Shown here piece by piece: positions 9,001 through 12,000 of a stretch of 64,000 nt of DNA. The stretch is from Escherichia coli (lineage in GTDB: Bacteria; Pseudomonadota; Gammaproteobacteria; Enterobacterales; Enterobacteriaceae): assembly GCF_045037415.1 (NCBI RefSeq), contig NZ_CP173438.1, one strand, 5' to 3'. A program made the position numbers. Positions within the stretch are counted from its first letter, which is position 1; every line of letters starts with the position of its first letter.

Positions 9001-12000
9001 CGCGCCGTTTGGCGATATGACGGTGAAATGCCATCAGCATTATTACATCACCACATTACCGGGCAGGCAGTGGCCAAAAATTGAGGCATTTATTACCTGG
9101 CTAAGAGAGCAGGTATGTCAGTCTTGTCAGTATCAGTGATACCGGGGATACCGGGGATACCGACAATATGGAAGGGCTCATTGCCCTGAAAACAACATTG
9201 GTGTCGGATGTACCGGGCCGCAGACATTGCGCTCCGTCATTTGTGCGGCACAGCCCATCACAGTGATAAAGTTTCTCAGTATGTATCAGGGATCTACACG
9301 CAGCAGCTTAAGGAGGCCGGATTGCAAGCATCAACAGGGCGTACAGGCGACTCGTATGGCAGCGCGATGGCGGAGAGCATCAATGATCTTTACAAAGCGG
9401 AATACACCATAAGAGCTGGAAAAATCGTGCAGAAGTGGAACTGGCCACACTTACGTGGATGGACTGGTATAACAATCGACGTTTACTGGAAAGGCTGTGG
9501 CACATCCCTCCGGCTGAAGCAGAAAAAGCGTATTATGCTTCTATCGGAAATGATGAGCTGGCAGCCTGAGTTCACAGATAAAACACTCTCCAGGAAACAC
9601 GGGGCGGTTCAACTGACAGACATCACAAATCCCCGGGTGGGGATTTGTGTATAAGAGACAGAGCCTAGCTGGGGGCTGTGCACAAGAAAACGGCTCCCTG
9701 TTGTGGAAGCCGCTATAGTGCCGCAGTTTAAGGACCGGTCAACTGCTCCTTAACTGATCCGCATTGTGCGTGAAAGCAGACTTTTGGGGTCATTACATGT
9801 TTGAAAATACATTCATAATAATGCCGCCACTAATAATCAGCAACATGGAGAATATGGCAGGTAAATCGGGCTTTTGTTTATAAAGAATCATCGAGAAAAT
9901 TGTCACGCCAACAATCCCAAAGCCGCACCAGAGTGAATAGGCAACACCAACCGGAATAGTACTCATTGCTCTGGTCAGAGCGAAATAACACGTTGAATAA
10001 GCACATACCACCAGAACAGAAGGCCACAGTCGCCTAAAACCATTGGTTTTTTTGATCATTGACGTACCGGTTATTTCAGAACCGATGGAAAGTGCCAGCC
10101 ATAAAAATCCAATATTAAACATGAGCAATTCCTTTTGTCAGTTAGCGATTTTTTTATCGAGGTTGGTAACTGGAGTTTCTTCCGCCTCTTCACTGCCCAT
10201 TTTTGAGAACAGATTCATAATGATAATACCGCTGGCTATGATGACCATACCAATAATGGCGGCGGTATCCGGGTGTTGACCGTAAAATAAAATCCCAAGG
10301 GTTGAAACCATCAAAATGCCAGTACCGGACCATGTGGCGTAAGCCAGACCAACGGGGATATCTTTTACTGCCCGTGAAAGCGAGTAGTAACAAATGCAAT
10401 ACAGTACGACGATTAGGGCCAGCAGCAGCGTTTTTGTCATCCCCTCACTGTTATCGAACATTTTAAGTGTGGATGTTGCAGAGGTTTCAGAAAGGATGAC
10501 CAGTAACATCCATAGCCAGCATTTTGTTTTCGAAGACATATCTAAACTCCAGGTTTGTTATCGAGGTAAGGTTATTTTTTCTGTGCTTTCAAAAAATCGA
10601 CCGCAGCATCGGTCAGTACGGCGTCGGGTGATTTTGCCAGTGCCGGATTATTGACGATATCGGTGACAGTCAGATAACGCCGATGATGACTTACAGGCGA
10701 TTGACTGCTGACGTCTGTTGCCAGTTTTTCCAGCATTTCATTCATGGAACATAACGTAATGCCACACTCGCTAAGGCCGGTAAGCGTGGCGGAAAGATGC
10801 GCCGCGTAGTCGCTGTGAACAGTACCGCGAAGCGCGTTTAATTCGCTGTGCGGATCGCAGTAATAACGCAGTGCCAGTACCGGAATACCCGCCAGTAGCG
10901 CATCGTGAACCCTTTGCGCTACCGGGCTTTGCAGCGTACCGTTGACAATATCTACAGCCAGCGGGTAACTCAAAAACGGCAGCAATAACGCTTTATAGGG
11001 CGTTGAAGGCAATTTGTGTTGCCATGTTTTAGCGGGTATCACGTCACCAATTTGCTGCCACCGTTCGCTATCACTGATTGTTTCATCCAGCGCCAGATGC
11101 AACCGTTCGCCACAACGAGCCAACCGCTGATGAATCAGATCCCGATAGCCATCCGCAGATGTCACCATGACCAGTACCGCAGGTTGCAGCCGCTGGAGGA
11201 TCAGGTTGACGATGGTGTCGATCTGTTGTTCGGTCATGATGGCCTCCCTTAGCGAATCAGTGTTACCTGCGCCCCGTTTTTCAGTCCGGCAGCATTGGCT
11301 TCTTCCGTATCGATATGCAGTTCAAGGGCAAAATCATTGCGCACCCGTACCACCACTTCATCGAACGTTAACTGGCGTTCACCATGACTGCGAACACTCA
11401 CCTTCTGCCCATTGCTGACATTCAACAGACGAGCATCCTGGGGAGACATATGAATATGCCGCCAGGCGCAAATGACTTGTGAATGCAACTCAACATGACC
11501 TTTCGGCCCCACCAACAGTGCGTCACCGGCATTTTCCAGTTGCCCGGATTCACGCACTGGCGCTTTAATGCCGAGAGTAAAACAATCGGCACGTGAGATT
11601 TCCAGCTGGCTTGTCGGGCGAACCGGTCCAAGTACGCGGACGTGAGTCAGAGAACCTTTCGGGCCGACAACCGTTACACACTCTTCAGCGGCGAATTGCC
11701 CAGGCTGGCGCAACGGCTTAAAGGGCGTAAGTTGGTAGCCAACACCAAAAAGTGCTTCAACATCCTGTTGCGACAGATGCACATGACGATTAGAAACACC
11801 GACCGGAATAGTGGGAGCAGTATCGATCAGTCGCGTGGTGATTTTTTCCTGTAGCAGTGCGTCAATCATGCTTTCTTCCCTTTCTTATGCCCGTGGCTTT
11901 TCACTTCCACGATGGGGGCTTGCACTTCTTTCTCAGGTACAGGCATTGCAGTTTCAGTATCTGTAGAAACTTCAGCGGTTTCCTCGCAGACAGCCATTTC

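What the first reader, a model, noticed from the sequence alone, without database searches (positions are those of the whole stretch)
9100..9165. Divergent dsdC 3' end followed by a 9-bp tandem repeat
The last ~10 codons of dsdC do not match the K-12 C-terminus as I recall it, and the stop codon runs into GATACCGGG repeated 2.8 times. The breakpoint between the dsd locus and the IS-flanked cut segment therefore lies within or right at the end of dsdC.
Basis: partly seen in the sequence, partly recalled or inferred. Interest (0 to 1): 0.3.

Follow-up and report, generated by a model that had tools for sequence, protein, structure and literature searches.

The report
Variant dsdC tail at island junction
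This is the known second (island-borne) copy of the E. coli D-serine regulator gene dsdC: its last seven codons come from junction DNA next to a dead insertion sequence, and a harmless variable 9-bp repeat follows the stop codon, so it is real but ordinary.

Summary
dsdC (8195-9139, +, 314 aa) matches K-12 without gaps up to codon V307 (window 9115). It then ends CQSCQYQ* where K-12 ends KTTS*. The stop TGA (9137-9139) overlaps GATACCGGG x2.8 (9138-9162).

Only 7 codons differ, not about 10. The IS homology starts about 50 nt further on, at about 9168.

The window is the leuX-island dsdCXA copy of B2 ExPEC strains (100% match to Combat2C1). 273 of 5,426 complete E. coli genomes carry this same junction.

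The variant tail is very unlikely to affect function:
- V307 is the natural last residue of Salmonella DsdC, and DsdC tails across the family run 0-11 unconserved residues.
- The DsdC and LysR models end at residues 306-309.
- NMEC strain CE10's DsdC2 has the identical tail, and published experiments show it is functionally redundant with DsdC1.

The repeat is a true polymorphic VNTR, with roughly 50, 46, 165 and 12 genomes carrying 1.8, 2.8, 3.8 and 4.8 copies. It lies outside the ORF and is most likely neutral slippage.

Downstream lie a 5'-truncated, frameshifted IS629-like remnant (9168-9611), further IS scraps, and then the SMR/cut cluster.

Verdict: already known, low interest.

The parts
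5293..9115 (.). dsdA-dsdX-dsdC module shared with the K-12 argW-linked dsd locus. It runs from 1 nt past the dsdA stop to dsdC codon V307.
   Evidence: One ungapped blastn HSP of 3823 nt at 97.5% identity. The Salmonella and Citrobacter dsd loci align over essentially the same span at about 78%.
8195..9139 (+). dsdC, a LysR-type activator of dsdXA, 314 aa (RefSeq WP_001298079.1 in the identical strains).
   Evidence: ORF. RefSeq annotation. NCBIfam DsdC equivalogs score 597.7 and 593.7 bits against cut-offs of 316 and 352. Pfam HTH_1 and LysR_substrate both match.
9116..9136 (+). Variant C-terminal tail, codons 308-314 (CQSCQYQ), not homologous to the K-12 tail (KTTS) or the CFT073 tail (SQYECYTL).
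   Evidence: The tail lies beyond the end of TIGR02036 (residue 307) and of LysR_substrate (residue 306).
9116..9133 (+). Imperfect 9-bp tandem duplication TGTCAGTCT / TGTCAGTAT, which encodes CQS / CQY of the tail.
   Evidence: the repeat finder family D5, 8 of 9 identical, spacing 9. Invariant in the four alleles aligned.
9137..9139 (+). dsdC stop codon TGA. Its GA is the first two bases of the repeat array.
9138..9162 (.). Polymorphic 9-bp tandem repeat (VNTR), GATACCGGG x2.8 in this window.
   Evidence: TRF. Alleles of 1.8, 2.8, 3.8 and 4.8 copies are aligned. Approximate counts of 50, 46, 165 and 12 among 273 genomes come from the identity bands.
9116..9167 (.). Orphan junction DNA between the end of dsd homology and the start of IS homology. 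Its origin is unresolved.
   Evidence: Not significantly similar to the adjacent IS segment or to any part of the IS (p about 0.05-0.15). No informative match among GTDB species representatives.
9168..9611 (+). 5'-truncated, frameshifted remnant of an IS3-family (IS629-like) element. It holds the last third of orfB plus the right inverted repeat, which ends ...GGGGCGGTTCA at 9611.
   Evidence: 87-89% identity to full IS3-family copies, starting at window 9168-9174. 84% identity to the window's own full copy. NCBIfam IS3 transposase model positions 276-369 of 369. RefSeq labels it 'integrase core domain, frameshifted, incomplete'.
9612..9792 (.). Mosaic of further IS-end scraps between the IS remnant and the SMR genes. 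It includes an IS50-like terminal 19-mer at 9643-9661 (-) and an IS4-family left end at about 9680-9766.
   Evidence: An 11-bp perfect hairpin at 9624-9649.
9793..10539 (-). Two SMR/DMT transporter genes, the first genes of the choline-utilisation (cut) microcompartment segment.
   Evidence: ORFs. RefSeq annotation of the identical strain.
23427..24736 (-). Full-length 1310-bp IS3-family (IS629-like) element at the other side of the cut segment, with its right end facing the cut genes.
   Evidence: Both terminal repeats found and the length measured. Annotated 'IS3 family transposase, programmed frameshift'.

Best explanation
The finding is the right-hand edge of the island-borne second copy of the D-serine utilisation module dsdCXA.

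Shown here: the conserved body of DsdC ends at V307 (window 9115). From 9116 on, the ORF runs into 52 nt of non-homologous junction DNA and stops at the first in-frame stop, giving a 7-residue tail, CQSCQYQ.

Shown here: that junction DNA is periodic at 9 bp. A fixed imperfect duplication (TGTCAGTCT / TGTCAGTAT) is followed by the GATACCGGG array.

Inferred: the 9-bp periodicity and the copy-number changes are best explained by replication slippage. The array starts inside the stop codon and lies 3' of the ORF, so changes of 9 bp cannot alter the protein. The repeat is most likely a neutral VNTR.

Shown here: the junction DNA abuts a decayed IS629-like element that has lost its first 865 bp or so. 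Together with a full inverted copy 14 kb away, this remnant brackets the SMR/cut segment.

Inferred: the edge was created by IS-associated deletion or illegitimate recombination that trimmed the DNA down to the functional end of dsdC.

Shown by published experiments on the identical tail: the protein works as a normal DsdC, a LysR-type activator of the divergent dsdXA operon.
For: Breakpoint at 9115/9116 and the three alternative tails.

Salmonella DsdC ends exactly at that valine (GTG TGA). DsdC homologues across genera have unconserved tails of 0-11 residues after FIxWL....

The DsdC and LysR models end at residues 306-309.

The same junction is present in 273 of 5,426 complete E. coli genomes, with an invariant tail and variable repeat number. 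Four independent UTI89 assemblies agree on 4.8 copies.

The IS remnant boundaries and its decay, a 1-nt and a 4-nt deletion relative to the CE10-type allele.

CE10 DsdC2 has the identical tail. CE10 DsdC1 and DsdC2 are reported as redundant for growth on D-serine, dsdXA promoter activation, DNA binding and complementation, and C-terminal FLAG fusions are tolerated (PMC9659370).

The window maps to the leuX-fim region of a B2 urinary isolate.
Against: The origin of the 52-nt junction DNA is not established.

The recombination event itself is inferred, not reconstructed, because no genome with an intermediate state was found.

The window's DsdC differs from the tested CE10 DsdC2 at five internal residues (182, 187, 191, 196, 264), so its function is inferred from a near-identical protein, not the same one.

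Neutrality of the repeat is inferred from its position only. An effect on the 3' end or stability of the dsdC mRNA was not tested.
Confidence: 0.88

Rival explanations
1. The altered 3' end is a damaging truncation or fusion, so this dsdC copy is a pseudogene or has changed function.
For: The last codons are non-homologous to K-12 and sit next to a decayed IS. Genuine fusion and deletion variants of dsdC exist elsewhere (P0003, P0014, P0051).
Against: The conserved core is complete to the residue where Salmonella DsdC ends. The protein scores far above both DsdC equivalog cut-offs. The tail is invariant in 273 genomes. The protein with the identical tail in CE10 is experimentally functional and redundant with copy 1.
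Confidence: 0.03
2. The orphan DNA, including the tail and the repeat unit, is itself a scrap of the same IS. It would come from orfA around nt 215-250, which contains GATACCGGGG. The 'remnant' would then be an internally deleted IS joined directly to dsdC at 9115/9116, with the repeat arising by slippage at the internal deletion joint.
For: An exact 10-mer GATACCGGGG occurs in orfA of a full IS copy (L016). A gapped alignment of about 70% identity runs from the first base of the orphan to the repeat.
Against: 5-15% of shuffled orphans score as well. The identity is far below the 84-89% of the orfB remnant. There is no similarity to the IS segment immediately upstream of the truncation point.
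Confidence: 0.15
3. The 9-bp array has a function. It might be a protein-binding or recombination site, a determinant of dsdC 3'-end formation, or the start of a TGA read-through extension (YRG repeats) that changes with copy number.
For: Copy number is polymorphic. The frame stays open for 90-141 codons after the TGA. In the CE10-type allele that frame runs into the orfB remnant.
Against: The post-stop frame differs between alleles: a 1-nt indel puts the window in another frame than CE10. The open frame is explained by genuine orfB coding sequence plus a 1-in-3 chance of being in phase. There is no terminator-like or Rfam feature at the array. The unit occurs nowhere else in the window. There is no phenotype difference between DsdC copies in CE10.
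Confidence: 0.03
4. The repeat and the odd tail are sequencing or assembly artefacts.
For: Short tandem repeats are error-prone in some assemblies.
Against: The junction is identical in hundreds of independent complete genomes, and four separate UTI89 assemblies give the same allele.
Confidence: 0.01

Closest known systems
DsdC2 / dsdCXA2 of neonatal-meningitis E. coli CE10 (Connolly et al. 2022, PMC9659370), and the second dsdCXA copy of K1 strains (Moritz and Welch 2006, cited there; that paper is not held in the library)
   Same: The 7-residue tail, stop codon and repeat unit are identical. The downstream IS remnant, SMR and cut genes are the same, and about 23 kb is 99% identical. [quoted passage not shown]
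   Different: CE10 carries the block in a selC island and has 1.8 repeat copies and a less decayed IS remnant. The window carries it in the leuX-fim region and has 2.8 copies. The two proteins differ at five internal residues.
E. coli K-12 DsdC (311 aa), the argW-linked dsdCXA
   Same: 97.5% DNA identity over dsdA-dsdX-dsdC up to codon 307, with the same divergent dsdC / dsdXA layout.
   Different: The tail is KTTS* instead of CQSCQYQ*. Downstream, K-12 has 95 nt and then the argW attachment core of prophage KplE1, or argW itself in prophage-free strains. The K-12-type end is in 2,386 genomes, the window type in 273 and the CFT073 type in 237.
IS629 / IS1203-type IS3-family insertion sequences (name from memory; family assignment tested)
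   Same: The window's full copy is 1310 bp and starts TGAACCGCCCCGG.... The remnant keeps the orfB C-terminus (rve domain) and the right terminal repeat.
   Different: The remnant lacks the first 865 bp or so (left repeat, orfA, most of orfB) and carries frameshifts. It cannot transpose.
Slipped-strand tandem repeats (VNTRs) and contingency-locus repeats
   Same: Perfect head-to-tail short units whose number varies between strains in steps of one unit.
   Different: The array is 3' of the stop codon, its period is a multiple of 3, and it is not in a promoter. It cannot switch expression the way contingency repeats do.

Membership tests
DsdC (LysR-type D-serine regulator) | Full-length match to the curated DsdC equivalog models above their cut-offs | tested here: met
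   NF007491 scores 597.7 bits (cut-off 316) over residues 1-309. TIGR02036 scores 593.7 bits (cut-off 352.4) over residues 8-307.
DsdC (LysR-type D-serine regulator) | N-terminal LysR HTH plus C-terminal LysR substrate-binding domain | tested here: met
   PF00126 over residues 18-76 and PF03466 over residues 99-306.
DsdC (LysR-type D-serine regulator) | Divergently transcribed from dsdX-dsdA | tested here: met
   dsdX at 6640-7977 (-) and dsdA at 5294-6622 (-), with dsdC at 8195-9139 (+).
DsdC (LysR-type D-serine regulator) | Activates dsdXA in response to D-serine | not testable with these tools
   Published for CE10 DsdC2, which has the identical tail but differs at five internal residues.
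IS3-family insertion sequence | DDE transposase (orfA/orfB with programmed frameshift) | tested here: not met
   Only model positions 276-369 of 369 are present, scoring 42-93 bits against a cut-off of 160, and the sequence is frameshifted. It is a remnant, not a functional member.
IS3-family insertion sequence | Both terminal inverted repeats | tested here: not met
   The right repeat is present and ends at 9611. The left repeat is absent, because homology starts at IS position about 865.
Composite transposon (IS - cargo - IS) | Two copies of one IS flanking the cargo | tested here: inconclusive
   Two IS629-like sequences in inverted orientation bracket 9612-23426, but they are only 84% identical and one is truncated.
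Composite transposon (IS - cargo - IS) | Target-site duplication at the outer ends | not testable with these tools
   The outer end of the left copy has been deleted.
Contingency (phase-variable) repeat locus | Copy number polymorphic between strains | tested here: met
   Alleles of 1.8, 2.8, 3.8 and 4.8 copies.
Contingency (phase-variable) repeat locus | Repeat lies in an ORF (period not a multiple of 3) or in promoter spacing, so that copy changes switch expression | tested here: not met
   The array begins in the stop codon and lies 3' of dsdC. Its period is 9. No promoter-like site overlaps it.

The most novel reading that the evidence does not exclude
dsdCXA may behave as a discrete cassette whose ends coincide with the ORF ends: 1 nt past the dsdA stop, and the last conserved dsdC codon. 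Three E. coli contexts (K-12/argW, CFT073/ipuAB and the leuX/selC island) break at the very same nucleotide. This could mean an unrecognised site-specific or hotspot mechanism moves or re-joins the cassette, with the 9-bp-periodic junction DNA as its scar or recognition site.
Probability: 0.05. Interest if true: 0.45.

Novelty: already known. Interest (0 to 1): 0.1.

Why it matters
It matters little beyond correct annotation. The analysis shows this dsdC is an intact, functional allele, the DsdC2 type of ExPEC/NMEC, and not a truncated gene. It fixes the exact edge of the dsd module at 9115/9116. It also documents a clean 9-bp VNTR with four alleles that could serve as a minor typing marker for lineages carrying the island copy of dsdCXA. 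The one mildly interesting point is that all known E. coli dsdC contexts diverge at the same nucleotide, which is the natural gene end in Salmonella.

Tried and rejected
1. I tested whether the orphan 9116-9167 derives from the IS segment just upstream of the truncation point. Anchored global alignments against shuffles gave p of 0.15-0.4, so this was rejected.

2. I looked for the best local match of the orphan anywhere in the remnant or a full IS, on both strands. An exact 10-mer and a roughly 70% gapped alignment to orfA turned up, but 5-15% of mono- or dinucleotide shuffles score as well. This is inconclusive.

3. I tested similarity of the orphan to the CFT073, K-12, Salmonella and Citrobacter dsdC 3' flanks. 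Only a marginal signal appeared, in the first 12 nt against CFT073 (p about 0.02, uncorrected). Nothing else was found.

4. An exact 21-mer scan of 100,044 species-representative genomes gave a single hit in an unrelated histidine-kinase gene of a Spirochaetes MAG. That is a chance match and there is no homology around it.

5. An Rfam scan and a terminator/promoter scan of the junction found nothing at the repeat. There is a sub-threshold ctRNA hit and a terminator-like hairpin at 9680-9714 (-), inside an IS4-end scrap.

6. The Moritz and Welch 2006 paper could not be read because it is not held. The CE10 paper's supplement held no alignment or primer text matching the tail, so I checked the CE10 genome directly.

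7. Read-through of the TGA was considered and judged unsupported.

Full report
**What is in the sequence.** dsdC occupies 8195-9139 on the + strand and encodes 314 aa from the ATG that RefSeq uses. It is transcribed divergently from dsdX (6640-7977, -) and dsdA (5294-6622, -). The ORF ends ...WLREQVCQSCQYQ, with TGA at 9137-9139. Tandem Repeats Finder reports GATACCGGG, period 9, 2.8 perfect copies, at 9138-9162, so the GA of the stop codon is the first two bases of the array. A 15-mer spanning two units is expected 0.04 times by chance in the window.

**Where K-12 homology ends.** A single ungapped alignment of 3,823 nt at 97.5% identity joins window 5293-9115 to the K-12 dsdA-dsdX-dsdC region. 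It begins 1 nt beyond the dsdA stop and ends with the GTA codon of V307. After that codon K-12 reads KTTS*, CFT073 reads SQYECYTL* and the window reads CQSCQYQ*. All three diverge immediately after CAGGTA. Seven codons are therefore non-homologous, not about ten.

**Is the gene damaged? No.**
- Among DsdC homologues from other genera, conservation ends a few residues after the motif FIxWL, and tails of 0-11 unrelated residues follow. Salmonella DsdC ends exactly at the equivalent valine (...WLQEQV*, GTG TGA).
- The curated models agree. TIGR02036 aligns through residue 307, NF007491 through 309 and Pfam LysR_substrate through 306, and the scores are far above the cut-offs.
- Strain CE10's second dsdC has the same CQSCQYQ* tail. 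Connolly et al. 2022 (PMC9659370) report several results for CE10 DsdC1 and DsdC2. [quoted passage not shown] Either gene alone supports growth on D-serine and full dsdXA promoter activation. Both proteins bind the promoter and complement a double mutant. C-terminal FLAG fusions are tolerated.
- The window's protein differs from CE10 DsdC2 at five internal residues, so function here is inferred from a near-identical protein.

**Genomic and population context.** The window is 100% identical to the urinary isolate Combat2C1 across the junction. In that genome the locus lies upstream of nanC, fimB and uxuA, which is the leuX-associated island of B2 strains.
- 273 of 5,426 complete E. coli genomes carry this junction.
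- 2,386 carry the K-12-type end. In prophage-free strains that end is followed directly by argW. In K-12 it is followed, 95 nt after the stop, by the 16-nt attachment core of prophage KplE1.
- 237 carry the CFT073-type end, next to ipuB/ipuA.
- Most carriers of the window type also have an argW-linked copy (the places-per-record columns).
- In CE10 the same block of about 23 kb sits in a selC island at 99% identity. The block runs dsdCXA, IS remnant, SMR, cut, IS, malY, nhaC. It has therefore moved between tRNA-linked islands as a unit.

**The repeat is a true VNTR.** Alignment of four alleles shows an identical tail and flanks, with 1.8 (SCPM-O-B-9427, CE10), 2.8 (window), 3.8 (AGR4587) or 4.8 (NU14, UTI89) units. 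From the identity bands of three searches, each using a different allele as query, the 273 genomes split into roughly 50, 46, 165 and 12. Four separate UTI89 assemblies all show 4.8 copies, so the allele is stable within a strain and is not an assembly artefact. The array starts in the stop codon and changes in steps of 9 bp, so the protein is unaffected. No promoter-like, terminator-like or Rfam feature overlaps the array. The tail itself is an imperfect 9-bp duplication (TGTCAGTCT / TGTCAGTAT, giving CQS / CQY). The whole 52-nt junction therefore looks like the product of serial slippage.

**What follows the repeat.** Homology to full-length IS3-family elements (87-89% identity to copies on E. 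coli and Shigella plasmids) starts at window 9168-9174. It runs to the right terminal repeat, which ends at 9611. This corresponds to about positions 865-1310 of a 1310-bp element. The window's own complete copy lies at 23427-24736 (-), is 1310 bp, starts TGAACCGCCCCGG..., and is 84% identical to the remnant. I call it IS629-like from memory. Only the IS3-family assignment is tested. Relative to the CE10-type allele, the window's remnant has a 1-nt and a 4-nt deletion, which matches the RefSeq note 'frameshifted; incomplete'. Both IS sequences point their right ends at the cut genes, so 'IS-flanked' is accurate. Between 9612 and 9792 lie further IS scraps.

**The unresolved piece.** The 52 nt at 9116-9167 (43 nt in the 1.8-copy allele) match neither dsd flanks nor the IS convincingly.
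- Alignment to the IS segment just upstream of the truncation point is no better than shuffles.
- The best match anywhere in the IS is to orfA, with an exact GATACCGGGG and about 70% identity with gaps, but 5-15% of shuffles score as well.
- Similarity to the other dsdC flanks is marginal at best.
- A 21-mer scan of species-representative genomes gave only a chance hit.

**Most likely mechanism.** An IS-associated deletion or illegitimate recombination trimmed the DNA beside the island copy of dsdCXA down to the functional end of dsdC. The ORF now terminates in junction DNA, and slippage then generated and keeps varying the 9-bp units. The end state is shown. The event itself is inferred. It is also unexplained why three E. 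coli contexts break at one nucleotide and why the other module edge is 1 nt past the dsdA stop. The simplest reading is that selection tolerates rearrangements only up to the gene ends. Salmonella and Citrobacter share the same module limits at about 78% identity.

**Verdict.** The allele is annotated in RefSeq as an ordinary DsdC, is widespread, and its C-terminal difference and functionality have been published. It is ordinary and already known. The VNTR polymorphism is a minor descriptive addition.

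Noticed in passing
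window 9643-9661 (-), within 9612-9661: CTGTCTCTTATACACAAAT closely resembles (from memory, 17 of 19) the IS50/Tn5 outer end. It is single-copy in the window and part of a 50-nt piece that recurs on many E. coli and Shigella plasmids. An 11-bp perfect hairpin (9624-9649) lies inside that piece.
   Followed up: partly
window 9680-9766: This stretch matches the left end upstream of an annotated IS4-family transposase on an E. coli plasmid. A terminator-like hairpin and a sub-threshold ctRNA_p42d hit (9680-9714, -) lie within it. It is probably another IS scrap.
   Followed up: partly
window 23427-24736 (-); L010 (EC45) 1127-2336: A full 1310-bp IS629-like element lies in inverted orientation to the remnant. 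Strain EC45 has a hybrid IS that is 100% identical to the window's remnant from window 9340 onward but about 70% identical before that, and it is joined to malY instead of dsdC. This suggests recombination or inversion between the two IS copies.
   Followed up: partly
L019 (CE10) 20000-46000 versus window 5224-28120: The whole block of about 23 kb (dsdCXA, IS remnant, SMR, cut, IS, malY, nhaC) is 99% identical but sits in a selC island in CE10, against the leuX-fim region here. CE10's full IS copy is split by a group II intron (ltrA).
   Followed up: partly
NZ_CP173546.1 (strain 98205) 3794069-3794348 and 3808741-3808996: One genome carries two copies of the dsdC-repeat-IS junction about 15 kb apart on opposite strands, one B2-type with 3.8 repeats and one CE10-type with 1.8 repeats.
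   Followed up: no
protein P0003 (metagenome contig, 386 aa): A dsdC variant in which a deletion of about 46 nt removes the end of the gene and fuses it in frame to the repeat and IS-remnant sequence (…PKIDSISDTGDTDNMEGL…). It shows that truly damaged versions of this junction also exist.
   Followed up: no
L008 / L019 (CE10-type allele), downstream of the dsdC stop: In the less decayed allele the dsdC frame continues after the TGA for 141 codons, straight into the intact orfB C-terminal frame. In the window a 1-nt deletion puts it in another frame, which is still open for 90 codons. This is judged coincidental.
   Followed up: yes
window about 29600-31500 (Combat2C1 3755594-3757395): An IS100 (IS21-family istA/istB) insertion splits the nhaC gene of the island. 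A truncated psiE and other IS scraps follow. This is from the annotation of the identical strain.
   Followed up: no
L011 (K-12) 1056-1071 and 11271-11286: The 16-nt KplE1 attachment core ATGGTGTCCCCTGCAG lies 95 nt after the K-12 dsdC stop and again at the argW 3' end. The K-12 tail KTTS and its 95-nt flank are therefore native argW-side DNA, not prophage DNA.
   Followed up: yes
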